Origin: a virus
Taxonomy: Duplodnaviria > Heunggongvirae > Uroviricota > Caudoviricetes
Virus record (IMG/VR): IMGVR_UViG_2529292910_000006
Direction: 5' to 3' (one strand)
Length of the DNA stretch: 7,942 nucleotides
A program made the position numbers and the translations under genes. A model generated the notes under the pieces. It saw nothing but the letters and a program-made list of their open reading frames with translations. It did no database searches and was not told the origin of the DNA. Shown one piece after another: positions 115 to 7,942 of this stretch. How positions within the stretch are numbered: the stretch's first letter is position 1; the number at the start of each line of letters is the position of its first letter.

Positions 115-489
115 ATGCTCATAGATTTGGTTTTACCTTACCCGCCGACGGTGAACACTTACTGGCGACGCCGTGGCAGCACATATTTTATCTCGGAGGA
201 GGGAAAGCGTTATCGCCGGGCTGTGGCGCTTATTGTTCGCCAGCAGCGGCTGAAATTAAGCCTGTCCGGAAGGCTGGCGATAAAGGTGATTGCAGAGCCA
301 CCGGATAAGCGTCGTCGCGACCTGGACAATATCCTGAAAGCACCGCTGGATGCGCTGACGCACGCGGGGTTGTTAATGGACGATGAGCAGTTTGATGAAA
401 TCAATATTGTACGTGGAAAGCCAGTATCTGGTGGACGTCTGGGGGTGAAGATTTACCCCATAATGCTTGAAGGGCAGGTCAAAAAATGA
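115..489 (+). CDS. rusA: Holliday junction resolvase RusA (crossover junction endodeoxyribonuclease)
   Basis: 124-aa ORF with AAGAGG ribosome-binding site at 103-108 and ATG at 115. The N-terminal LPYPPTVNTYWRRRG and the acidic catalytic block PDKRRRDLDNILKAPLDALTHAGLLMDDEQF match my recollection of E. coli RusA ([23 protein letters not shown]). Its TGA overlaps the next gene's ATG (ATGA at 486-489). Confidence 0.9.
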   Translation: MLIDLVLPYPPTVNTYWRRRGSTYFISEEGKRYRRAVALIVRQQRLKLSLSGRLAIKVIAEPPDKRRRDLDNILKAPLDALTHAGLLMDDEQFDEINIVRGKPVSGGRLGVKIYPIMLEGQVKK

Positions 490-1306
490 AACTGGAAGAT
501 TTACCGAAATACTACTCCCCAAAATCCCCTGGCCTGACCGATGCATCGGCCTCAACGTCAAAAGATGCGCTGAGTATCACTGATGTGATGGCCGCGCAGG
601 GCATGACACAGAATCGGGCTGAGATGGGGTTTTCTGCGTTCCTTGGGAAAATGGGCATTAGTATGAATGACAGAGAGCGGGCAACAGAATTGCTGACAGA
701 ATATGCACTCAGTCGGTGTGATCGCGTGGCGGCGTTAAGAAAACTCCCGGCAGAAATAAAACCGGCAGTAATGCGTATTATGGCTTCGTATGCGTTTGAA
801 GATTATGCCCGTAGCGCGGCGAGCAAAAAACAGTGCCCCTGCTGTCACGGAAAAAATTTATTGAAAGCGAGGTTTTTACAAACAAGATCCAGTATCCGGA
901 TGGTAAGCCGCCAGTGTGGGCAAAGTGCACAAAAGGCGTGTATCCGTCTTACTGGGAGGAATGGAAAAAAGTCAGGGAGGTGGTAAAAGTTGCCTGTCCG
1001 GAGTGTGGAGGGAAGGGAGAGGTATCCACTGCCTGTAAAGATTGTCGTGGGCGCGGTGTTGCCATTCATCGTGAAGAGTCGGAAAAACAGGGTGTGCCGG
1101 TTTTCAGAAACTGTCAGCGTTGTGGTGGGCGTGGCTATGAAAGATTACCTTCAACGGAGGCATTTAATGCCATATGTAATGTAACCGATGCCATATCTCT
1201 TGATACATGGAAAAAAACAGTTAAACGTTTTTACGATACGCTGGTGGTGCAGTTTGATATTGAAGAAGCATGGGCAGAACAACAACTGAAAAAGGTGACC
1301 AGATAG
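486..1306 (+). pseudogene. Lambdoid late antiterminator Q-like protein with CxxCxGxG zinc-finger repeats, interrupted by a -1 frameshift in an A6 tract (851-856)
   Basis: Sits directly after rusA and before a late-promoter/terminator pair. The N-terminal part (frame 0, MKLEDLPKYYSPKSP…CPCCHGK) turns into R/S/Q-rich translation after about 855, while frame 2 picks up from about 857 (KFIESEVF…CPECGGKG…CKDCRGRG…CQRCGGRG) and runs to TAG at 1304-1306. One extra A in the run at 851-856 would give a single ORF of about 272 aa. Alternative reading: two overlapping genes, 486-986 and 833-1306. Confidence 0.6.
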
Positions 1307-1311
1307 CTTTG

Positions 1312-1339
1312 TTGATTTTTCCCGAATCTGTGGTAAATT
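1312..1339 (+). promoter_or_regulatory. Candidate late promoter (pR'-like): -35 TTGATT, 16-bp spacer, extended -10 TGgTAAATT
   Basis: TTGATT at 1312-1317, TG at 1331-1332 and TAAATT at 1334-1339, immediately downstream of the Q stop and about 50 bp upstream of an intrinsic terminator. This is the canonical position of pR' in lambdoid phages. Confidence 0.45.
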
Positions 1340-1386
1340 TGCCCTAACGATGGGCGTTTTATGCCTGACGTTAGAAGATTTTTACA

Positions 1387-1409
1387 CCCGTCGCCAGGCG
1401 GGTTTTTTT
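1387..1409 (+). terminator. Rho-independent terminator (tR'-like) downstream of the late promoter
   Basis: Stem CCCGTC (1387-1392), loop GCCA, stem GGCGGG (1397-1402) with one G-U pair, followed by T7 (1403-1409). Confidence 0.6.
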
Positions 1410-1531
1410 ATGACTGAAATCACGCCAGTACAGTAAACGCGCTGGTGGCGGTGAATACCGGTCTTTCAGCTTGCTGGCTTTTTTGACAAGAGTTATTGGT
1501 GTGTCACGTTAACCGGAAAAGGGAAAAAGAC

Positions 1532-1729
1532 ATGCTGAAACAGCAGGATATGACCGAAACCGCCAGAGTGGTGTTTAATGAATTAAGTGCCACCGCACCG
1601 GCGACAGTCGGGGAGATTGCACAGAATACTTACCTCTCACGCGAACGCTGCCAGTTAATACTGACCCAGCTTGTTATGGCGGGTCTGGCAGACTATCAGT
1701 GCGGTTGTTACAGACGCCTTCAGTCCTGA
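1532..1729 (+). CDS. Small hypothetical protein (65 aa), accessory gene of unknown function
   Basis: ATG at 1532 preceded by AAGGG at 1519-1523; the ORF track also allows a GTG start at 1496. The protein (MLKQQDMTETARVVFNELSATAPATVGEIAQNTYLSRERCQLILTQLVMAGLADYQCGCYRRLQS) has a short helix-turn-helix-like central segment. Its stop codon is embedded in an intrinsic terminator. Confidence 0.5.
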   Translation: MLKQQDMTETARVVFNELSATAPATVGEIAQNTYLSRERCQLILTQLVMAGLADYQCGCYRRLQS

Positions 1730-1741
1730 AGGCTTTTTATT
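1716..1741 (+). terminator. Rho-independent terminator at the end of the small ORF
   Basis: Perfect 7-bp stem GCCTTCA (1716-1722) / TGAAGGC (1727-1733) with loop GTCC, followed by TTTTTATTT. Confidence 0.65.
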
Positions 1742-1762
1742 TGTGGTGAATGGGCGGCTGGT

Positions 1763-1770
1763 GGGGGGGG
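1763..1770. repeat. G8 homopolymer tract in the intergenic region upstream of the AraC-family gene
   Basis: GGGGGGGG at 1763-1770, about 30 bp upstream of the candidate -35 element. Confidence 0.9.
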
Positions 1771-1798
1771 CGACACCTGTCAGTCCTTTGCTTATGTG

Positions 1799-1829
1799 TT
1801 GATGATAATTTACCTTTTGGGGCTATAAT
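1799..1829 (+). promoter_or_regulatory. Candidate sigma70 promoter for the AraC-family gene
   Basis: TTGATG at 1799-1804 and a perfect TATAAT at 1824-1829, in an AT-rich stretch about 35 bp upstream of ATG 1865. The 19-bp spacer is longer than optimal. Confidence 0.3.
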
Positions 1830-1864
1830 TGAGCTAACCAATTGCTAATGAAAGTAAAATTATA

Positions 1865-2578
1865 ATGGCTGTTGTCTGTTCAGTTATCATGGTTTGCTCC
1901 CCAATTAATATTTTTCTTGAAAAGGATACGTTGTCACTTAAGCCAGGCTCAGTCGTTCTGGCCACCAAATGCATCAGGGAGCTTTTCCTTATGCATTATG
2001 ACAAAGTTAAAATTGTCGATATAAGCGAATCCGTCGTAAGTCAATATCTGGAAAGTCAGCATAAGCTGACGAGGACTCGTCTGACTGACATTCCGCTTTA
2101 CCTGTTGCTGGAACCCAACAATCCTGCGTTGGCTGCGGCTTTAATTACCAGCCAGGGATTTTCCGGAGAGGCCACGGATATGTTTCTTATGATGGCCTGC
2201 CTGTCTCTGTTTGAAACAGATGAACGGATGTCATTGTTTTTAAGTGGATGTTTATCCAGCATAAGTGTCAAAGTCAGGGCGATAATTCAGACAGATATAT
2301 CAGCAAGCTGGACGCTTGGTGCGATTGCTCTACAGTTGCATATGAGTGAGAGTTTGTTAAAGACAAAACTGAAAAATGAAGGGGGCATGTTCAGTCGCTT
2401 GTTGCTGGAAGAGCGGATGCGTGTTGCTGTAAATATGTTATGTTCCCGGTATGGATATGGACAGGCTGTAGCAGAAAAATGCGGTTATTCAAGCAGGTCC
2501 TACTTTATTTCTGTATTTCACCGCTATTATGGCTTCCCGCCAGACAGATATGTATCCAGGCAAGGGCTTGATTATTGA
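1865..2578 (+). CDS. AraC/XylS-family transcriptional regulator of the AppY/GadX-like group (prophage-borne, PatE/Psr-like)
   Basis: 237-aa ORF. The C-terminal AraC-type HTH (WTLGAIALQLHMSESLLKTKLKNEGGMFSRLLLEERMRVAVNMLCSRYGYGQAVAEKCGYSSRSYFISVFHRYYGFPPDRYVS) closely parallels the GadX C-terminus as I recall it (WTLARIASELLMSPSLLKKKLREEETSYSQLL…CGYHSVSYFIYVFRNYYGMTPTEY). The N-terminus MAVVCSVIMVCS…IRELF…KVKIVDISE resembles AppY (MDYVCSVVFICQ…IRREL…KLRIVDIDK). No recognisable Shine-Dalgarno sequence. Confidence 0.8.
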   Translation: MAVVCSVIMVCSPINIFLEKDTLSLKPGSVVLATKCIRELFLMHYDKVKIVDISESVVSQYLESQHKLTRTRLTDIPLYLLLEPNNPALAAALITSQGFSGEATDMFLMMACLSLFETDERMSLFLSGCLSSISVKVRAIIQTDISASWTLGAIALQLHMSESLLKTKLKNEGGMFSRLLLEERMRVAVNMLCSRYGYGQAVAEKCGYSSRSYFISVFHRYYGFPPDRYVSRQGLDY

Positions 2579-2606
2579 TTTTCATCTGATTATTATTTTT
2601 TTACCC

Positions 2607-2682
2607 GGCCCTTTAGCTCAGTGGTGAGAGCGAGCGACTCATAATCGCCAGGTCGCTGGTTCAAATCCAGCAAGGGCCACCA
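2607..2682 (+). tRNA. ileZ: tRNA with CAU anticodon, most like tRNA-Ile2 (lysidine) of the ileX/ileZ type; tRNA-Met not excluded
   Basis: 76 nt with 7-bp acceptor stem GGCCCTT/AAGGGCC, D arm GCTC…GAGC, anticodon loop CTCATAA, T loop TTCAAAT and encoded CCA. Near-identical in layout to E. coli ileX as recalled. Confidence 0.8.
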
Positions 2683-2689
2683 TCACATA

Positions 2690-2766
2690 CCGCCATTAGC
2701 TCATCAGGACAGAGCGCCAGCCTTCGAAGCTGGTTGCGCGGGGTTCGGGTCCCCGATGGCGGTCCA
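2690..2766 (+). tRNA. argN: tRNA-Arg (anticodon UCG)
   Basis: 77 nt with perfect 7-bp acceptor stem CCGCCAT/ATGGCGG, D stem GCTC/GAGC, perfect anticodon stem CCAGC/GCTGG with loop CTTCGAA, T stem CGGGG/CCCCG and encoded CCA. Seven-nt spacer from the previous tRNA. Confidence 0.75.
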
Positions 2767-2779
2767 TTATCGGTATTCA

Positions 2780-2856
2780 GCGTTGTTAGCTCAGCCGGAC
2801 AGAGCAATTGCCTTCTAAGCAATCGGTCACTGGTCCGAATCCAGTACAACGCGCCA
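2780..2856 (+). tRNA. argO: tRNA-Arg (anticodon UCU)
   Basis: 77 nt with acceptor stem GCGTTGT/ACAACGC, D stem GCTC/GAGC, anticodon stem ATTGC/GCAAT with loop CTTCTAA, T loop TCCGAAT and encoded CCA. Confidence 0.85.
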
Positions 2857-3143
2857 CACCACACTTATCTGCCCTGACTCTCTTTTGCGGGCTTTTTATT
2901 ACAGGAAAGACACCGGACAGTGAAATGTTAAATGCCTCACAATTCAGGCAGTTGACTGTTGCCTGACATGCTGAGCGTTTGTTAAAAAAATCCTGCATGA
3001 TGAATCCCCCTGAGCGGCGGGGCATAATGACAGATGTTTGGTTGCGTATTGTATAGGCAAGTTGCGGATTCTGTCTGGTCATTGCAGAATTCACCGGGAG
3101 GCACCCGGCATCATGCTGTATACAGAGATTAGGCATATATCCA

Positions 3144-3168
3144 GGCTCCTCATCGCAGGAGCCTTTTT
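3144..3168 (+). terminator. Rho-independent terminator (+ strand)
   Basis: Stem GGCTCCT (3144-3150) / AGGAGCC (3157-3163) with loop CATCGC, followed by TTTTT. Confidence 0.55.
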
Positions 3169-3174
3169 ACATGC

Positions 3175-3199
3175 AAAAAAAGCCCGAGTGGGTTCGGGC
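3175..3199 (-). terminator. Rho-independent terminator (- strand), forming a back-to-back pair with the + strand terminator
   Basis: On the minus strand: GCCCGA, loop ACCCAC, TCGGGC, followed by T7 (seen as A7 at 3175-3181 then GCCCGAGTGGGTTCGGGC on the + strand). Confidence 0.45.
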
Positions 3200-3259
3200 A
3201 ACAGCATGAGATACTTGCATTGTCATTTTTATCGTGTGGATTTTAACCAGGGTTTATAA

Positions 3260-3290
3260 GGCTGCGCAACTGCGCGGCCTTTTTCGTTTT
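3260..3290 (+). terminator. Rho-independent terminator (+ strand) about 90 bp upstream of nanS-p
   Basis: Stem GGCTGCGC (3260-3267) / GCGCGGCC (3272-3279) with one G-U pair and loop AACT, followed by TTTTTCGTTTT. Confidence 0.5.
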
Positions 3291-3377
3291 GCGGGCTGCG
3301 GTTCTCCTCTTTTGATTCTCCGTATAGCCGGACTGTGGCCCGCACTGTTGAGGAAAATCCCGGAAAGGGGAGGAATA

Positions 3378-5312
3378 ATGGCATTTAAACACTATGACGT
3401 GGTCAGGGCGGCGTCGCCGTCAGACCTTGCTGAACGACTGACTCAAAAACTGAGGGAGGGGTGGCAGCCATTTGGCAGTCCTGTCGCCATCACGCCTTAT
3501 ACCCTGATGCAGGCCATTGCGGCGGAAGGTGATGTCACCACACCTGTGGTGGTGAGGCCGTCGGATGGAGAAGGCACAGTTATCAGCACCACCAGCGAAC
3601 CGGAATATTACTATGTTGTCGTCCTTGCCGGTCAGTCCAATGGTATGGCTTTTGGCGAAGGGCTGCCGTTACCTGAAACCTATGACCGCCCTGAGCCGCG
3701 CATTATGCAGCTGGCGCGCCGTAGTACGGTGACGCCGGGGGGAGCTGCATGTGCGTACAATGATGTTATTCCAGCTGACCACTGTCTGCATGACGTCATT
3801 GATATGAGTGGATTCAACCACCCACGGGCCGACCTGACAAAGGGGCAGTATGGTTGTGTGGGGCAGGGGCTGCATATTGCCAAAAAGCTTCTGCCGTTCA
3901 TTCCGGTAAATGCAGGTATTCTCCTGGTTCCGTGCTGTCGTGGTGGCTCAGCATTCACCTCCGGAGATGATGGCGCATTTACTGAGTCTACCGGTGCTTC
4001 CGCCAGCTCAGCCCGCTGGGGAGTGGGTAAACCGTTGTATCAGGATTTTCTCTTCCGTACAAAAGCGGCGCTGTCGAAGAACCCGAAAAACAGGCTTCTG
4101 GCCGTGGTATGGATGCAGGGGGAAAATGATCTTGCGGACGGCAGTCAGCAGCACAGCGGCCTGTTTACCGCTATGGTGCAGCAGTTCAGGGCTGATATGG
4201 CAGCATATTCTGCACAGTGCGTTGGCGGAAGTGCTGGCTCGGTGCCGTGGATTTGCGGTGACACCACGTATTACTGGAAGAATCTTAACGCCGCTAAATA
4301 TGAGGCGGTATATGGCGGTTACAAGGGCAGGGAAGCACAGAATATTTTCTTTGTTCCTTTTATGACGGACAGCAGTGGTGCAAACACACCCACCAACAAT
4401 CCGTCAGAAGACCCGGATATTCCGGCATCAGGATATTACGGTGCAGCCTCCCGGACGTCGGAAAACTGGACGTCAGCAGACCGTGCGAGCCATTTCAGCT
4501 CATGGGCACGCAGGGGGATTATTTCTGACCGTCTGGCCTCAGCGATTCTTCTCCATGCAGGACGATCGGCTGAACTGGTGGGGGGACAGGTTGTGACGCC
4601 GCCGGATGAGAAGCCGTCACCGGACATACCATCAACACCGTCAACGGACGGGAAATCAGTGACAACGCTGCTTTCTTACCGTGCAGCAGAGTCAGATGGT
4701 TTACTGACTCCGCAGGGATGGGGTGCTGAAGGAGGGAGTGCAGCGGTAGTTGATGATGCAGGTGCTGCGGGAGGTAAGGCGCTGAGGCTGACCAAACAGG
4801 CAGGAAGGTCTTCGTGGTTTATGCAGCATGATGCCGGTAATGGCGCAGACCTTCTGGAGAAAGGCGGGCTTATCAGCTGTCGTTTTAAAGTTGATGGTGT
4901 GCTGTCTGCTAACCGTTATGCACTGGCGCTGTACTGGCCGGTTTCTTCATTGCCTCAGGGTGTCACACTGGAAGGTAATGCCGGTAACAATCTGCTGGCG
5001 TCGTTTTACGTACAGAGCGATGCCACAGACCTCAACGTGATGTACCACAAGGGTAACGCTGACCAGAACACGAAGCTGGGGTCATTCGGCGCATTTGACA
5101 ACGAATGGCATACGCTGGGCTTCCGTTTTGCCGGTAATAACAGCATTCAGGTGACGCCGGTGATTGATGGTCAGGATGGTGCACCGTTCATGCTGTCGCA
5201 GTCTCCGGTAGGTTCTTTTGCGGCAGACAAATTACGTGTAACGGATATCACAAAAGCGGCGACGTATACGGTGCTGATTGAAAGTATAACAGTGGAAGTG
5301 AATAACGCGTAA
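3378..5312 (+). CDS. nanS-p: Prophage sialate O-acetylesterase NanS-p (N-terminal DUF1737-like region plus SGNH/SASA esterase domain), 644 aa
   Basis: Strong ribosome-binding site GGAGG at 3368-3372 with ATG at 3378; the ORF track's longer 3234 start is an in-frame upstream extension. GQSNG esterase motif in VVVLAGQSNGMAFGEG (about 3630-3644). Size and position (after the tRNA triplet, before the holin) match the esterase gene found downstream of stx in Stx phages. Confidence 0.85.
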   Translation: MAFKHYDVVRAASPSDLAERLTQKLREGWQPFGSPVAITPYTLMQAIAAEGDVTTPVVVRPSDGEGTVISTTSEPEYYYVVVLAGQSNGMAFGEGLPLPETYDRPEPRIMQLARRSTVTPGGAACAYNDVIPADHCLHDVIDMSGFNHPRADLTKGQYGCVGQGLHIAKKLLPFIPVNAGILLVPCCRGGSAFTSGDDGAFTESTGASASSARWGVGKPLYQDFLFRTKAALSKNPKNRLLAVVWMQGENDLADGSQQHSGLFTAMVQQFRADMAAYSAQCVGGSAGSVPWICGDTTYYWKNLNAAKYEAVYGGYKGREAQNIFFVPFMTDSSGANTPTNNPSEDPDIPASGYYGAASRTSENWTSADRASHFSSWARRGIISDRLASAILLHAGRSAELVGGQVVTPPDEKPSPDIPSTPSTDGKSVTTLLSYRAAESDGLLTPQGWGAEGGSAAVVDDAGAAGGKALRLTKQAGRSSWFMQHDAGNGADLLEKGGLISCRFKVDGVLSANRYALALYWPVSSLPQGVTLEGNAGNNLLASFYVQSDATDLNVMYHKGNADQNTKLGSFGAFDNEWHTLGFRFAGNNSIQVTPVIDGQDGAPFMLSQSPVGSFAADKLRVTDITKAATYTVLIESITVEVNNA

Positions 5313-5326
5313 GCAGGATAAAAAAA

Positions 5327-5368
5327 TGCCGCCGGGGCAGGGAAAACAAGGAGCCAGAACCGGCGGCA
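5327..5368. repeat. Perfect 9-bp inverted repeat (TGCCGCCGG / CCGGCGGCA) with 24-nt spacer, just downstream of nanS-p
   Basis: 5327-5335 and 5360-5368 are exact reverse complements. No T-run follows, so this is not a canonical intrinsic terminator. Confidence 0.5.
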
Positions 5369-5462
5369 GAGGTCGCTACATCCTTAGCAAAAATATGCTG
5401 AGCAAAAAATGCAGGAGTTTTTTACTGGCAGGCATTAACCATGTCAATAATGGAGATGAATA

Positions 5463-5645
5463 ATGACATTTTTACAGCTGATTATGTTGTATTTCTGTAC
5501 AGCAGTTTGTGTGCTGTATCTTCTTTCTGGTGGGTACAGAGTCGTGAGAGATTTCTGGCGCAGACAGATTGACAAAAGGGCCGCTGAGAAAATCAGCGCC
5601 AGTCAGTCAGCCGGAACAAAACCCGAAGAGTCTCTCATTCCGTAG
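5463..5645 (+). CDS. Small hypothetical membrane protein (60 aa)
   Basis: GGAG at 5452-5455, 7 nt before ATG 5463. N-terminal hydrophobic helix (FLQLIMLYFCTAVCVLYLLSGG) followed by a basic/polar tail. Confidence 0.5.
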   Translation: MTFLQLIMLYFCTAVCVLYLLSGGYRVVRDFWRRQIDKRAAEKISASQSAGTKPEESLIP

Positions 5646-5682
5646 CAACTTTCTTAACAACACCTTTCAACGAGAAAATACC

Positions 5683-5952
5683 ATGTCAGAAATAAAATCG
5701 CTGGTCACTGCTGAAGCAGTGAAGGAAGTCCTGCGCTCTGAAGAAGTCAGAAGCGCACTGAAACAGCAACTTCGTCAGAATCTTGAGGCGCGTCTTGATG
5801 CTGAAGTGGATGCCATTCTGGATGAACTGCTGGGGGTACCGGCTGCTCCCGGGCCTGAAGACGGTGCGGGTGACAGTGCTGTTTCAGATGGTGTCGTGTC
5901 TCAGCCTGATGGTGGCAGTGAGCCTCAGCCTGACGGCGAAATGATGATGTAA
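5683..5952 (+). CDS. Hypothetical acidic protein (89 aa)
   Basis: ATG at 5683 inside the longer track ORF 5569-5952. Helical N-terminal half (…LRSEEVRSALKQQLRQNLEARLDAEVDAILDELLG) and acidic Pro/Gly/Asp-rich C-terminus ending MMM. Weak ribosome-binding site. Confidence 0.45.
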   Translation: MSEIKSLVTAEAVKEVLRSEEVRSALKQQLRQNLEARLDAEVDAILDELLGVPAAPGPEDGAGDSAVSDGVVSQPDGGSEPQPDGEMMM

Positions 5953-6027
5953 CCATGCGCAGGGGCTGTCGGTGTGAGCTGATGCCCCTCTTGTTGTTGT
6001 GAGCTTCCGGATTGCGGGAGACGGGGT

Positions 6028-6243
6028 ATGTACCAGATGGAAAAAATCACAACAGGTGTGTCATACACCACGTCAGCGGTGGGAACGGGCTACTGGTTCC
6101 TGCAGTTGCTGGACAGGGTTTCCCCGTCTCAGTGGGCGGCAATAGGCGTGCTGGGGAGTCTGCTGTTTGGTCTGTTGACGTACCTGACGAACCTGTATTT
6201 CAAAATCAGAGAGGACCGTCGTAAGGCGGCACGGGGAGAGTAG
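6028..6243 (+). CDS. S: Class II holin (phage 21 S-type pinholin), 71 aa, with dual-start motif
   Basis: GGGAG at 6016-6020 then ATG 6028 and a second in-frame ATG at 6037 (MYQMEK…). Two transmembrane segments and the charged C-terminus [13 protein letters not shown]. The sequence closely matches my recollection of S21 (…[25 protein letters not shown]…[22 protein letters not shown]). Confidence 0.9.
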
Positions 6244-6246
6244 GTG

Positions 6247-6327
6247 ATGAACCATGAAGAAATGAATCAGCGCTTCAGTCGTCTGGAAAATGAAATTGCT
6301 GAACTGAATAAAAACTGTCGGCGCTGA
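6247..6327 (+). CDS. Very small ORF (26 aa) coupled to the downstream gene by a TGATG overlap; coding status uncertain
   Basis: ATG at 6247, 3 nt after the holin stop (MNHEEMNQRFSRLENEIAELNKNCRR*). Its TGA at 6325-6327 shares an A with ATG 6327 of the next ORF. Confidence 0.3.
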   Translation: MNHEEMNQRFSRLENEIAELNKNCRR

Positions 6328-6803
6328 TGCCTTCTGAAGATGAAAAAAAACGCCGCGATGAGCAGTTTGCTGCGTTTGACGATTATTGTCGGAAAGTGAT
6401 GAGCAGAAATCTCGCAGAGTGTTTCAGTATTCATAATGATAATTTCAGTGAGCTGGAATGGGAGTGTAACCGGCCATCCTTTGTTGTATCCGGTGATGCT
6501 GGGAAAATAACCATCTCAGAAAATGGGAAAGTAACACCTCCATCGCACCAGCACAGTGAGGAGCTCATTGAATTTGCCATTGATTACCTGAAGAACAATA
6601 AAAAGCAGGGGCTGATGAAGCGCGTTGGCCGTTGCATGGGATATCTTCAGGTAGCCGCTGAGATTGAAGCGCTGGCCAGTGGTGCTGATAAGGATGCAAT
6701 TGTGCGGGAGGCTCTTCTTCGTGATTTTAATACTCCACCCTTTAAAAAAGTGCCGGCTTACTGGCTTCATCCGGGGCTGACTTATCTTAAAGTGCGTATT
6801 TAG
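6327..6803 (+). CDS. Hypothetical protein (158 aa) located between holin and endolysin
   Basis: Uninterrupted ORF with non-repetitive composition (MPSEDEKKRRDEQFAAFDDYCRKVMSRNL…). An A8 tract at 6343-6350 sits in codons 6-8. No family recognised. Confidence 0.55.
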   Translation: MPSEDEKKRRDEQFAAFDDYCRKVMSRNLAECFSIHNDNFSELEWECNRPSFVVSGDAGKITISENGKVTPPSHQHSEELIEFAIDYLKNNKKQGLMKRVGRCMGYLQVAAEIEALASGADKDAIVREALLRDFNTPPFKKVPAYWLHPGLTYLKVRI

Positions 6804-6839: not shown

Positions 6840-6980
6840 ATGAACACCAAAATCAAATACGGCCTGTCGGCTGCCGTTCTGGCGCTGATTGCCGCTGGTG
6901 CGCCTGCGCCTGACATTCTCGACCAGTTTCTGGATGAAAAGGAAGGTAACCACACCACGGCATACCGTGATGGCGCGGGT
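6840..6980 (+). pseudogene. R: SAR endolysin (lysozyme R) 5' fragment, truncated after about 47 codons
   Basis: MNTKIKYGLSAAVLALIAAGAPAPDILDQFLDEKEGNHTTAYRDGAG matches the N-terminal signal-anchor-release region of Stx-phage/phage-21-type endolysins as recalled (…YGLSAAVLALIAAGA…DQFLDEKEGNHTTAYRDGAG). After about 6980 the frame becomes unrelated and stops at 7014-7016. Confidence 0.75.
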
Positions 6981-6985
6981 ACACC

Positions 6986-7942
6986 ATGCAGGTTGAGCCG
7001 GGGCGTTATCGTGTGACCCTGTGCGTGGAAGGCCGTCAGCCGGCATGCGCTGGCGAGATTGACGTCATGGCAGACGACGAGCCGGGCACACTGAATGCGT
7101 TTTTGCTGCGTGAGCAGGACAGCACTTATTACCCTGAGTCGCTGAAAAAACTGGAAGACGCGGCGGATGCGGCTGTCAGCAGGGCAGAGGAAGCGGCGAG
7201 GAAAGCGGAAACGGCGGTTGGGCCACAGGGACCGAAAGGCGACACCGGAGCAACGGGGCCGCAGGGACAGAAGGGGGACAAGGGGGATACAGGCCCACAG
7301 GGGCCAAAGGGGGATAAAGGAGACAAGGGCGATAAGGGGGATAAGGGAAAAGAGATTATTGCAGTACGAAATGCAGCCTGCAACGAATACGGCGGGATAA
7401 ACTGTGAGGTGCAGTTTGAAGATGCGGTCAATGAAAAAGGAGAGCAGGTATGGCTGCCGTATACCGCAACGGAAACGGATAATACAGAACACGGAAAAGC
7501 CTTGTGGTCGGGGCTGACAGCAGGAACATACGGAAGTGTGAGTGCCTTTGTTGCCACGGAAGCAATACTGGAAGCGGCAAAGGCGGCGAAAAGGGAAGAG
7601 ATTAATATCTGGCGTGATGTGCAGGAGAATATGGAATACGTGATGGAATTCAACGGAAGGAACTGGGATTACGGCAAGAAGACGTTGTCCAGGATAAGCA
7701 CGACACGACTGATGGCAGAGAACAACCGTCTTCCGGAAGGGTTTGCCTGGACGGACGGGGATAATAATGTGGTGCCGGTAACGGCGGCGGAGATAATTGC
7801 GCTGGCAGATGCGACAGAGCAGGCGATGTTTGCGAAAGGTGTGGAGATTAATACACGTCAGCTTCAGATGAAAGCAGAGGTTGAGGCGCTGACAGAGCTG
7901 AAGGCGATCCGCAGTTATGTTGTCGGATGGCCTGCAAGCTAG
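6986..7942 (+). CDS. stf: Side tail fibre protein, 5'-truncated remnant (318 aa from the first ATG) with collagen-like Gly-X-Y repeats
   Basis: EPGRYRVTLCVEGRQPACAGEIDVMADDEPGTLNAFL aligns with lambda Stf residues around 55-95 as recalled (EYGQYSVILQVDGFPPSHAGTITVYEDSQPGTLNDFL), so the homology starts mid-protein. Fourteen Gly-X-Y triplets follow. The frame is open back to 6971 and runs to TAG at 7940-7942, with no ribosome-binding site of its own. Confidence 0.7.
   Translation: MQVEPGRYRVTLCVEGRQPACAGEIDVMADDEPGTLNAFLLREQDSTYYPESLKKLEDAADAAVSRAEEAARKAETAVGPQGPKGDTGATGPQGQKGDKGDTGPQGPKGDKGDKGDKGDKGKEIIAVRNAACNEYGGINCEVQFEDAVNEKGEQVWLPYTATETDNTEHGKALWSGLTAGTYGSVSAFVATEAILEAAKAAKREEINIWRDVQENMEYVMEFNGRNWDYGKKTLSRISTTRLMAENNRLPEGFAWTDGDNNVVPVTAAEIIALADATEQAMFAKGVEINTRQLQMKAEVEALTELKAIRSYVVGWPAS
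7220..7354 (+). repeat. Collagen-like triplet repeat (Gly-X-Y, 14-15 units, including four GDK in tandem) inside the tail fibre gene
   Basis: GPQGPKGDTGATGPQGQKGDKGDTGPQGPKGDKGDKGDKGDKGKE, with a 9-bp periodicity of GGnGAnAAG-type units visible in the DNA. Confidence 0.9.

What the first reader, a model, noticed from the sequence alone, without database searches (positions are those of the whole stretch)
1410..2606. Accessory insertion carrying an AppY/GadX-like regulator between the late terminator and the tRNAs
In Stx-type phages the tRNA genes follow the late terminator closely. Here about 1.2 kb is inserted, AT-rich in its intergenic parts, with a candidate promoter and a GadX/AppY-like AraC-family regulator that has no link to phage propagation. 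Prophage-borne regulators of this family (AppY on DLP12; PatE and Psr on EHEC prophages) are known to rewire host acid-resistance and virulence regulons, so this gene is a candidate for host-directed regulation. Its position downstream of the late promoter could also tie its expression to prophage induction.
Basis: partly seen in the sequence, partly recalled or inferred. Interest (0 to 1): 0.6.

Follow-up and report, generated by a model that had tools for sequence, protein, structure and literature searches.

The report
Known prophage acid-resistance regulator PsrB
The gene is real, but it is a near-identical copy (3 differences in 237 residues) of PsrB, a prophage-borne AraC-type regulator of pathogenic E. 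coli already shown to switch on acid-resistance genes and damp type III secretion, so the finding is correct but ordinary.

Summary
Window 1865-2578 (+) encodes an intact 237-aa AraC/XylS regulator with both HTH motifs. It lies between the late promoter/terminator downstream of Q and three phage tRNA genes. It differs at 3 residues (D46G, A103V, V135A, all outside the HTH region) from the gene in the EDL933 OI-57 / Sakai Sp11 prophage. By position and island content I equate that gene with psrB (z2104). It is 90% identical to the second O157 copy (Sakai Sp4), 37% to PatE, 35% to GadW, 31% to YdeO and 29% to AppY. A quick NJ tree puts it inside a Psr clade whose sister is PatE. PsrA and PsrB are published activators of gadE/hdeA that indirectly repress LEE type III secretion.

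Only 1766-2605 is specific to psr. The stretch 1398-1765 (terminator plus a 65-aa ORF) is shared with many Stx2a phages and with Sakai Sp9, which carry a DNA methylase in the same place. The cassette is AT-rich (42% GC) and carries a promoter-like site whose -10 box is conserved in alleles down to 59% identity. Two terminator-like hairpins separate it from the late promoter. This copy lies in a decayed prophage with Q frameshifted and the lysis-to-tail genes deleted.

Verdict: already known, low interest.

The parts
115..489 (+). rusA (Holliday-junction endonuclease), upstream context of the late regulatory region
   Evidence: Pfam RusA E 3.9e-17
486..1306 (+). Late antiterminator Q (273-aa type with a zinc-ribbon/DnaJ-CXXCXGXG-like centre). 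In this copy it is split by a 1-nt deletion in an A7 run at about 851-856.
   Evidence: Two overlapping ORFs (486-986 and 833-1306) both hit Pfam Antiterm. The gene shows 1 difference in 822 nt from the intact Q of L006, namely the missing A.
1312..1354 (+). Late promoter pR'-like element: -35 TTGATT (1312-1317), 16-nt spacer, -10 TAAATT (1334-1339), then a lambda-like pause element AACGAT (1346-1351)
   Evidence: The alignment to lambda 44504-44629 shows GGTAAATTTGcCctAACGATGGG against lambda GGTAAATTTGaCtcAACGATGGG. Assigning this lambda sequence to the pR' -10 and pause signal rests on established knowledge of lambda.
1386..1410 (+). Intrinsic terminator (tR'-like): 7-bp G+C-rich stem followed by T7
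1532..1729 (+). Conserved 65-aa ORF with weak winged-helix (TrmB/HTH_24) similarity. It is shared by psr-type and methylase-type prophages and is not part of the psr-specific cassette.
   Evidence: Gene calls in L006-L015. Pfam TrmB E 0.004, below the cutoff. Conserved in Sakai Sp9/Sp4/Sp11 and in Stx2a phages.
1716..1738 (+). Second terminator-like hairpin plus T5, overlapping the stop codon of the 65-aa ORF
1766..2605 (+). psr-specific cassette, the segment replaced by a DNA methylase gene in Sakai Sp9 and many Stx2a phages. GC is 42%.
   Evidence: blastn break points: window 1401-1765 and 2606-3535 match Sp9, and the interval between does not. Stx2a phages match query positions 83-466 and 1305-1598 of the 1300-2900 query. 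GC content.
1802..1829 (+). Promoter-like site of psr: ATGATA-16-TATAAT, about 35 nt upstream of the ATG
   Evidence: Consensus scan, 10 of 12 matches. The sequence is identical in Sakai Sp4 and Sp11. The -10 is kept as TATAAT or TATACT in alleles of 77%, 64% and 59% identity that sit in different upstream contexts.
1865..2578 (+). psrB-type gene: 237-aa AraC/XylS regulator, with a GadW/YdeO/AppY-like N-terminal domain and a C-terminal double HTH (about residues 133-233)
2607..2682 (+). tRNA with CAU anticodon (ileZ of O157 annotations; ARAGORN calls it Met)
   Evidence: annotated as ileZ
2690..2766 (+). tRNA-Arg (UCG), argN
2780..2856 (+). tRNA-Arg (UCU), argO

Best explanation
The region holds a psrB-type moron, meaning an accessory gene carried in a phage genome but not needed for phage growth. 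It encodes a 237-aa AraC/XylS transcription factor of the GadW/YdeO/AppY/PatE subgroup.

The gene sits in the accessory-gene zone of a lambdoid prophage, between the Q-dependent late promoter/terminator and the phage tRNA genes ileZ-argN-argO.

Most likely mechanism:
- In the lysogen the gene is transcribed from its own AT-rich promoter (about 1802-1829).
- Two intrinsic terminators (1386-1410 and 1716-1738) shield it from pR'.
- As published for PsrB and PsrA, the protein binds the gadE and hdeA promoter regions of the host acid fitness island through its C-terminal double HTH.
- This raises GadE and YhiF levels, which increases glutamate-dependent acid resistance and indirectly represses the LEE type III secretion system.

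Shown here: the ORF, its domains, its near-identity to the O157 gene, its family placement, its prophage context, the cassette boundaries and the promoter and terminator motifs.

Inferred: that the 3-residue variant has the same targets, that the O157 gene compared is the one named psrB, which promoter is used, and that the host strain has the gad/LEE targets.
For: ORF and domains:
- The 237-aa ORF carries HTH_AraC and HTH_18 above the Pfam cutoffs.
- The closest solved structure is the GadX DNA-binding domain (3mkl, E 2.1e-18), followed by Rns, CsvR and ToxT.
- The best NCBIfam models are YdeO (full length, E 2.1e-30) and GadX.

Identity to the O157 genes:
- The protein is 234/237 identical to EDL933 CP008957 1905274-1905987, which equals Sakai ECs_2191 extended to the upstream ATG.
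- That gene lies in the prophage that carries pchB and nleG2-3/nleG6-2/nleG5-2. A review (PMC8565820) places those effector genes in OI-57 as z2149-z2151, together with psrB (z2104).
- The two Sakai copies, in Sp4 and Sp11, are 91% identical to each other. The published PsrA-PsrB identity is 90%.

Family placement and conservation:
- The NJ tree groups the window protein with the Sp11 copy inside a clade of alleles at 58-98% identity. Its sister is PatE, followed by AppY/GadW, EnvY/GadX and YdeO.
- The N-terminal MxxVCSV motif is shared with PatE, GadW, AppY and YdeO, which supports the 237-aa start.
- dN/dS between alleles is 0.24-0.47.
- The promoter -10 box is conserved across alleles in different contexts.

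Distribution and context:
- The 1.6-kb region is present at 80% coverage or more in 697 of 5426 complete E. coli genomes.
- The identical protein occurs on at least 18 contigs, several of them showing an apparently complete late and packaging region.

Published function (reviews PMC10877973 and PMC8565820, citing Tree 2011 and Yang 2015):
- PsrB binds the hdeA and gadE promoters and enhances acid survival.
- PsrA and PsrB repress T3S through GadE and YhiF.
Against: - The three substitutions (D46G, A103V, V135A) lie in the N-terminal domain and linker, and their effect is unknown.
- The primary papers (Tree 2011, Yang 2015, Bender 2012) and the original EDL933 record with Z-numbers were not available. 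Equating the OI-57/Sp11 gene with psrB therefore rests on island content and gene order, not on a sequence labelled PsrB.
- According to the review, deleting psrB alone had little effect on T3S in O157.
- This copy sits in a decayed prophage.
- The ribosome-binding site is weak by eye.
- The promoter is only a consensus match.
Confidence: 0.85

Rival explanations
1. The gene is expressed mainly as part of the Q-dependent late transcript, as stx is in Stx phages. Its product would then appear on prophage induction rather than in the stable lysogen. Its own promoter-like site would be minor or not functional.
For: The gene lies about 520 nt downstream of a lambda-like pR' -10/pause element (1332-1354) and on the same strand as Q, the tRNAs, nanS-p and the lysis genes. 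Only intrinsic terminators lie in between, and Q-modified polymerase should read through them (established knowledge of lambdoid late control). In phiSTEC1575-Stx2k the same gene sits between Q and stx2AB.
Against: The -10 box about 35 nt upstream of the ATG is conserved in alleles of 59-77% identity, even when the allele follows a methylase gene or other cargo. The reviews report psrA deletion phenotypes in ordinary culture, and no induction step is mentioned in the passages read. In this copy Q is frameshifted and the prophage is crippled, yet the ORF is kept intact. The two modes are not exclusive.
Confidence: 0.25
2. In this strain the gene is a silent or decaying passenger of a dead prophage and has no regulatory role.
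For: Q carries a frameshift. Everything from the lysozyme gene to the middle of a tail-fibre gene is deleted. Single psrB deletion had little effect on T3S in O157. O157 strains carry at least two redundant copies.
Against: The ORF is full length with no stop or frameshift, and the HTH motifs are conserved. The protein is identical to copies in apparently intact prophages. dN/dS is below 0.5. The promoter-like site is identical to the O157 copies. Induced PsrB is reported to raise acid survival.
Confidence: 0.1
3. The regulator serves the phage itself, for example by controlling the adjacent tRNAs, sRNAs, nanS-p or the lysis-lysogeny decision, rather than host regulons.
For: Its position and orientation are fixed, immediately upstream of the tRNA genes, in all close alleles examined.
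Against: Closely related prophages do without it, carrying a methylase or nothing in the same place. It is therefore dispensable for the phage. Published targets are host genes (gadE, hdeA). Its nearest relatives (PatE, GadW, AppY, YdeO) are all regulators of host stress genes (established knowledge).
Confidence: 0.05

Closest known systems
PsrB (z2104, OI-57 of EHEC O157:H7 EDL933; Sakai ECs_2191 in prophage Sp11)
   Same: 234/237 residues are identical. Length, start and HTH are the same. The layout is the same: 65-aa ORF, then psr, then ileZ/arg tRNAs, on the late-operon strand of a lambdoid prophage. The upstream promoter-like sequence is identical.
   Different: Three substitutions (D46G, A103V, V135A). 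A different Q type lies upstream (273-aa Antiterm type here, DUF1133 type in Sp11/OI-57). The chromosomal site differs (next to potB here, ydfJ for Sp11). No pch or effector genes remain in this deleted prophage.
PsrA-type allele (second O157 copy, Sakai ECs_1087 in Sp4; literature: z1789, 90% identical to PsrB)
   Same: 89.9% identity over all 237 residues and the same cassette, with DNA homology over window 1454-2901 at 94%.
   Different: 24 residue differences. Yet another Q type plus a CAAX-protease gene lies upstream in Sp4. Which O157 copy is the published psrA could not be settled: Sakai Sp6 and CP-933N of the resequenced EDL933 have no such gene.
PatE (z0321 / ECs_0287, prophage Sp1/OI-8)
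   Same: Full-length homologue (37% identity, E 5e-54) that is prophage-borne. It activates gadE/hdeA according to the literature. It is the sister clade in the NJ tree.
   Different: A separate clade. It sits at the far end of a cryptic prophage, not in the Q-tRNA zone.
GadW, GadX, YdeO (chromosomal acid-resistance regulators) and AppY (DLP12 prophage)
   Same: The same two-domain architecture. Identity is 29-35% over the full length for GadW, YdeO and AppY, with a shared MxxVCSV N-terminus. GadX is 41% identical over the DNA-binding domain, and 3mkl is the best PDB hit.
   Different: Scores fall far below the NCBIfam equivalog cutoffs (YdeO 106 bits against 348, GadX 88 against 500), so these are paralogues, not orthologues. 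The genomic contexts differ.

Membership tests
AraC/XylS family | C-terminal DNA-binding domain of about 100 residues with two helix-turn-helix motifs | tested here: met
   Pfam HTH_AraC 50.1 bits (cutoff 26.6) and HTH_18 37.7 bits (cutoff 33.6) over residues 155-230. Residues 133-233 align to the GadX DNA-binding domain 3mkl. The conserved SESLLKxKLK and CGYSSxSYFIxxF blocks are present.
GadX/GadW/YdeO/AppY subgroup | Full-length homology including the N-terminal (dimerisation) domain | tested here: met
   BLASTP over residues 1-230: GadW 35% (E 3e-39), AppY 29% (E 1e-33), YdeO 31% (E 1e-32). The N-terminal motif is shared.
YdeO or GadX orthologue (NCBIfam equivalogs) | Score above the curated equivalog cutoff | tested here: not met
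   YdeO 106.2 bits against a cutoff of 348; GadX 87.7 against 500
Psr (prophage-encoded secretion regulator) family | High sequence identity to O157 PsrA/PsrB (which are 90% identical to each other) | tested here: met
   98.7% to the OI-57/Sp11 gene and 89.9% to the Sp4 gene. Those two are 91% identical to each other. Caveat: the names were assigned to these genes through island content, not from a labelled sequence.
Psr family | Encoded exclusively on lambdoid prophages | tested here: met
   The window has rusA-Q upstream and tRNAs, nanS-p and holin downstream. The same holds for all 10 places carrying the identical protein and for alleles of 59-77% identity.
Psr family | Association with effector loci and Pch regulators on the same prophage | tested here: not met
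   The O157 copies have pchA or pchB and nleG genes nearby. This remnant ends at potB with no effector or pch gene, because the distal prophage is deleted. This is a reported association, not a defining property of the protein.
Psr family | Binds the gadE and hdeA promoters; raises GadE/YhiF; represses T3S | not testable with these tools
   Known only from the literature, as summarised in PMC10877973 and PMC8565820.
PatE | Orthology to z0321/ECs_0287 | tested here: not met
   37% identity and a separate clade

The most novel reading that the evidence does not exclude
The stretch between Q/tR' and nanS-p behaves as a structured cargo zone. A conserved 65-aa winged-helix-like ORF with its own hairpin marks the left edge (the break point is at 1765/1766). 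In the two-way swap the tRNA genes mark the right edge. Self-promoted cargo (psr, a DNA methylase, or both stacked) is exchanged by recombination independently of the Q type. In addition, psr may be boosted by Q read-through on induction, which would couple the host acid-resistance and T3S programmes to prophage activation in a subpopulation. Neither the role of the 65-aa ORF nor induction-coupled psr expression has, to my knowledge, been described.
Probability: 0.25. Interest if true: 0.35.

Novelty: already known. Interest (0 to 1): 0.15.

Why it matters
Psr-type regulators are a textbook-style case of prophage genes rewiring core host regulons (GAD acid resistance and LEE type III secretion) in EHEC. 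Recognising this gene adds nothing new mechanistically. It is useful for annotation, because RefSeq/PGAP calls it only 'helix-turn-helix domain-containing protein', and the Sakai annotation (with many other deposited calls) truncates it to 195 aa. It also shows that a psrB-type allele survives intact in a heavily decayed prophage at the potB site, which fits selection for the host-directed function rather than for the phage.

Tried and rejected
- The primary papers were not held (Tree 2011 by DOI; Yang 2015 PMC4288888; Bender 2012 PMC3416394), and neither was the original EDL933 record NC_002655. PsrA and PsrB therefore had to be identified indirectly.
- I looked for the gene where the reviews place psrA (OI-50/CP-933N). 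Sakai Sp6 and CP-933N of the resequenced EDL933 have a TerB-like pseudogene and DUF3927 between Q and the esterase, and tblastn found no AraC gene. Sakai Sp10 has none either, and Sp9 has a methylase instead. Copies were found in Sp4 and Sp11. Sp3, Sp5, Sp8, Sp12, Sp14 and Sp15 were not checked.
- The source names in the protein collection gave no Psr label, only 'helix-turn-helix domain-containing protein' or 'AraC family'.
- PatE, AppY, GadX, GadW and YdeO were rejected as identities at 29-41% identity.
- I looked for repeats flanking the cassette that would suggest transposition or site-specific insertion and found none. There is only a tRNA-tRNA similarity and one 12-nt inverted pair that is probably chance.
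- I did not map the published sRNA EvrS (between z1789 and z1793) onto the window, because its sequence was not in the text read.
- Structure prediction and the large representative-protein search were not used, because the identification was already unambiguous.

Full report
**1. What is there**

The window is positions 2-7943 of contig AIFZ01000018.1 (assembly GCA_000249675.2). It is the late regulatory region of a lambdoid prophage. The features, in order:

| Window coordinates | Feature | Source |
|---|---|---|
| 115-489 | rusA | |
| 486-1306 | Q antiterminator, Pfam Antiterm, here split into two ORFs | |
| 1334-1339 and 1346-1351 | lambda-like late promoter -10 (TAAATT) and pause element (AACGAT) | |
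| 1386-1410 | strong intrinsic terminator | |
| 1532-1729 | 65-aa ORF | |
| 1716-1738 | second terminator-like hairpin, overlapping the ORF's stop codon | |
| 1865-2578 | 237-aa AraC-family ORF | |
| 2607-2856 | three tRNA genes (CAU, UCG, UCU anticodons) | |
| 2966-3174 (+) and 3175-3234 (-) | sRNA genes STnc100 and an AgvB-like element | |
| 3378-5312 | nanS-p-type esterase (DUF1737-SASA-DUF6645) | |
| 5463-6243 | DUF1378, DUF826 and holin | |

In one search, GGTAAATTTGcCctAACGATGGG aligns to the lambda pR' region. The functional assignment of that lambda sequence is established knowledge.

**2. The observation**

The ORF, its HTH, the AT-richness and a promoter-like site are all real.
- Pfam HTH_AraC scores E 2.8e-13 and HTH_18 covers residues 155-230. 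Both are above their cutoffs.
- GC is 37% in 1766-1864, 44% in the CDS and 42% in 1766-2605. The flanks are 49% (rusA-Q), 57% (tRNAs) and 55% (nanS-p).
- The scan finds ATGATA-16-TATAAT at 1802-1829, with 10 of 12 matches.

The boundaries and the premise are only partly right.
- Against Sakai prophage Sp9, homology runs over window 1401-1765, breaks, and resumes exactly at the first tRNA (2606 onward). The interval in Sp9 holds a DNA methylase gene.
- The same two-piece pattern appears in dozens of Stx2a-converting phages annotated 'DNA methylase'.
- The psr-specific cassette is therefore 1766-2605 (840 bp). The terminator and the 65-aa ORF belong to a shared backbone.
- One Stx2k phage (OQ243220) has small ORF, psr, three tRNAs and then stx2AB.
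- More divergent alleles (64% and 59% identity) sit downstream of the methylase, or of the methylase plus tRNAs, in the same Q-to-esterase zone. Cargo can therefore be stacked as well as swapped.
- No flanking repeats were found.

**3. Identity**

Closest relatives:
- The protein differs at only three residues (D46G, A103V, V135A) from the gene at 1905274-1905987 of the resequenced EDL933. That gene is identical to Sakai ECs_2191 extended to the upstream ATG.
- It is 89.9% identical to the second Sakai copy, ECs_1087 in Sp4.

Linking the gene to the name psrB:
- The EDL933/Sakai gene lies in the prophage that carries pchB and nleG2-3, nleG6-2 and nleG5-2. A review assigns those effector genes (z2149-z2151) and psrB (z2104) to OI-57.
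- Gene counting back from the nleG genes lands within a few numbers of z2104.
- The Sp4 and Sp11 copies are 91% identical to each other. This matches the published 90% identity between PsrA and PsrB.

More distant relatives:
- Identities are 37% to PatE (ECs_0287), 35% to GadW, 31% to YdeO and 29% to AppY. GadX is 41% identical over the DNA-binding domain.
- NCBIfam's best models are YdeO and GadX, far below their equivalog cutoffs.
- An NJ tree places the window protein with the Sp11 copy inside a clade of alleles at 58-98% identity. PatE is the sister group.
- The spread of allele tiers fits the reported 'six additional Psr homologs'.

Start codon:
- The 237-aa start is supported by the MxxVCSV N-terminus shared with PatE, GadW, AppY and YdeO, and by PGAP's call in EDL933.
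- The 195-aa form in the Sakai annotation and in many database entries is a truncated call.

**4. Is it a live gene?**

- dN/dS between alleles is 0.24-0.47.
- No allele examined is interrupted.
- The -10 box about 35 nt upstream of the ATG persists as TATAAT or TATACT in alleles whose upstream context is entirely different.
- The 1.6-kb region is present at 80% coverage or more in 697 of 5426 complete E. coli genomes.
- The exact protein occurs on at least 18 contigs. On several of these the late and packaging region appears complete.

**5. Mechanism**

From the literature (reviews PMC10877973 and PMC8565820, citing Tree et al. 2011 and Yang et al. 2015):
- PsrB binds the hdeA (-132 to -45) and gadE promoter regions.
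- It activates AR2 acid-resistance genes through GadE and improves acid survival.
- PsrA and PsrB repress LEE type III secretion indirectly through GadE and YhiF.

With 234/237 identity and an unchanged HTH region, the same activity is the most likely for this allele. This is an inference.

Expression most likely comes from the cassette's own promoter, because two terminators intervene between pR' and psr and the -10 element travels with the gene. Read-through from pR' under Q antitermination is geometrically possible and would resemble stx control, but it is untested.

In this copy the adjacent Q gene lacks one A of an A7 run. Otherwise it shows 1 difference in 822 nt from an intact copy. This could be a genuine pseudogene or a homopolymer sequencing error.

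**6. State of the prophage**

The window is 99.96% identical to an intact-looking relative (L006) up to position 6981. After that, the lysozyme N-terminus is joined to the middle of a tail-fibre gene. The contig then continues into potB-potA-pepT. The element is therefore a remnant that cannot form particles, yet psr is intact.

**7. Unresolved**

Reviews place psrA (z1789) in OI-50/CP-933N, and the EvrS paper describes z1789 as flanking an sRNA next to esterase z1793. That layout matches this window. However, neither Sakai Sp6 nor CP-933N of the resequenced EDL933 contains an AraC gene. I could not obtain the original EDL933 record. Which physical copy is the published psrA therefore remains open. 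This does not affect the family assignment.

**8. Verdict**

The gene is an allele of an already characterised regulator, so novelty is nil and interest is low. The corrected anatomy (an 840-bp cassette that alternates or stacks with a methylase behind a conserved 65-aa ORF) and the possible coupling to Q read-through are the only mildly open points.

Noticed in passing
window 486-1306 (indel at about 851-856): The Q antiterminator gene is split by loss of one A from an A7 run. It is otherwise identical (1 difference in 822 nt) to the intact Q of L006. This is either a real pseudogene or a homopolymer sequencing error in a draft assembly.
   Followed up: partly
window 6840-7942 (break at 6981/6982); L010 8000-12579: Collinearity with an intact relative ends at 6981. 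The first ~47 codons of the lysozyme gene are joined to the middle of a collagen-repeat tail-fibre gene (Pfam phage_tail_N profile positions 51-127, DUF4376). The rest of lysis, terminase, head and tail genes are deleted. The contig then runs into potB-potA-pepT.
   Followed up: partly
window 2966-3174 (+) and 3175-3234 (-): Rfam finds the sRNA STnc100 (176.7 bits against a gathering score of 47). On the opposite strand it finds an AgvB-like anti-sRNA, just at its gathering score (56.6 against 56), with AsxR as the weaker alternative. Both lie between the tRNAs and nanS-p. STnc100-like segments are repeated several times in L024.
   Followed up: no
window 1532-1729 (+): A 65-aa ORF with weak winged-helix similarity (Pfam TrmB E 0.004, below cutoff; PGAP sometimes names it 'TrmB family transcriptional regulator'). 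It is conserved immediately after tR' in psr-type and methylase-type prophages and in many Stx2a phages, and it ends in a terminator-like hairpin. I know of no published function.
   Followed up: partly
L003 (Sakai Sp6) 14169-15248; L004 (EDL933 CP-933N) 16769-17848: Reviews place psrA (z1789) in OI-50/CP-933N, but this prophage in Sakai and in the resequenced EDL933 has a TerB-like pseudogene and DUF3927 there, with no AraC gene and no tRNAs. A 2025 paper maps the sRNA EvrS between z1789 and esterase z1793. This may reflect a prophage mis-assembly in the original EDL933 sequence or a numbering issue.
   Followed up: partly
L029 (phiSTEC1575-Stx2k, OQ243220) 3581-6262: A complete Stx2k-converting phage carries the small ORF, a 237-aa psr homologue (DNA about 92% identical to the window) and three tRNAs immediately upstream of stx2A/stx2B. 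An iraM-like anti-adapter gene lies just downstream.
   Followed up: partly
window 2568-2596 (+): A promoter-like site, TTGATT-17-TATTAT, lies inside the 3' end of the psr cassette and ends about 10 nt before the first tRNA gene. It could drive the tRNA cluster independently of late transcription.
   Followed up: no
window 6327-6803 (+): A 158-aa ORF between the holin and the lysozyme remnant has no Pfam match. The corresponding gene is annotated as a frameshifted hypothetical protein in L001.
   Followed up: no
L024 2377-2805: In one relative the Q-to-esterase zone also holds a 142-aa TolA-like ORF between the tRNAs and a 59%-identical psr allele. This shows further cargo diversity in the zone.
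   Followed up: no
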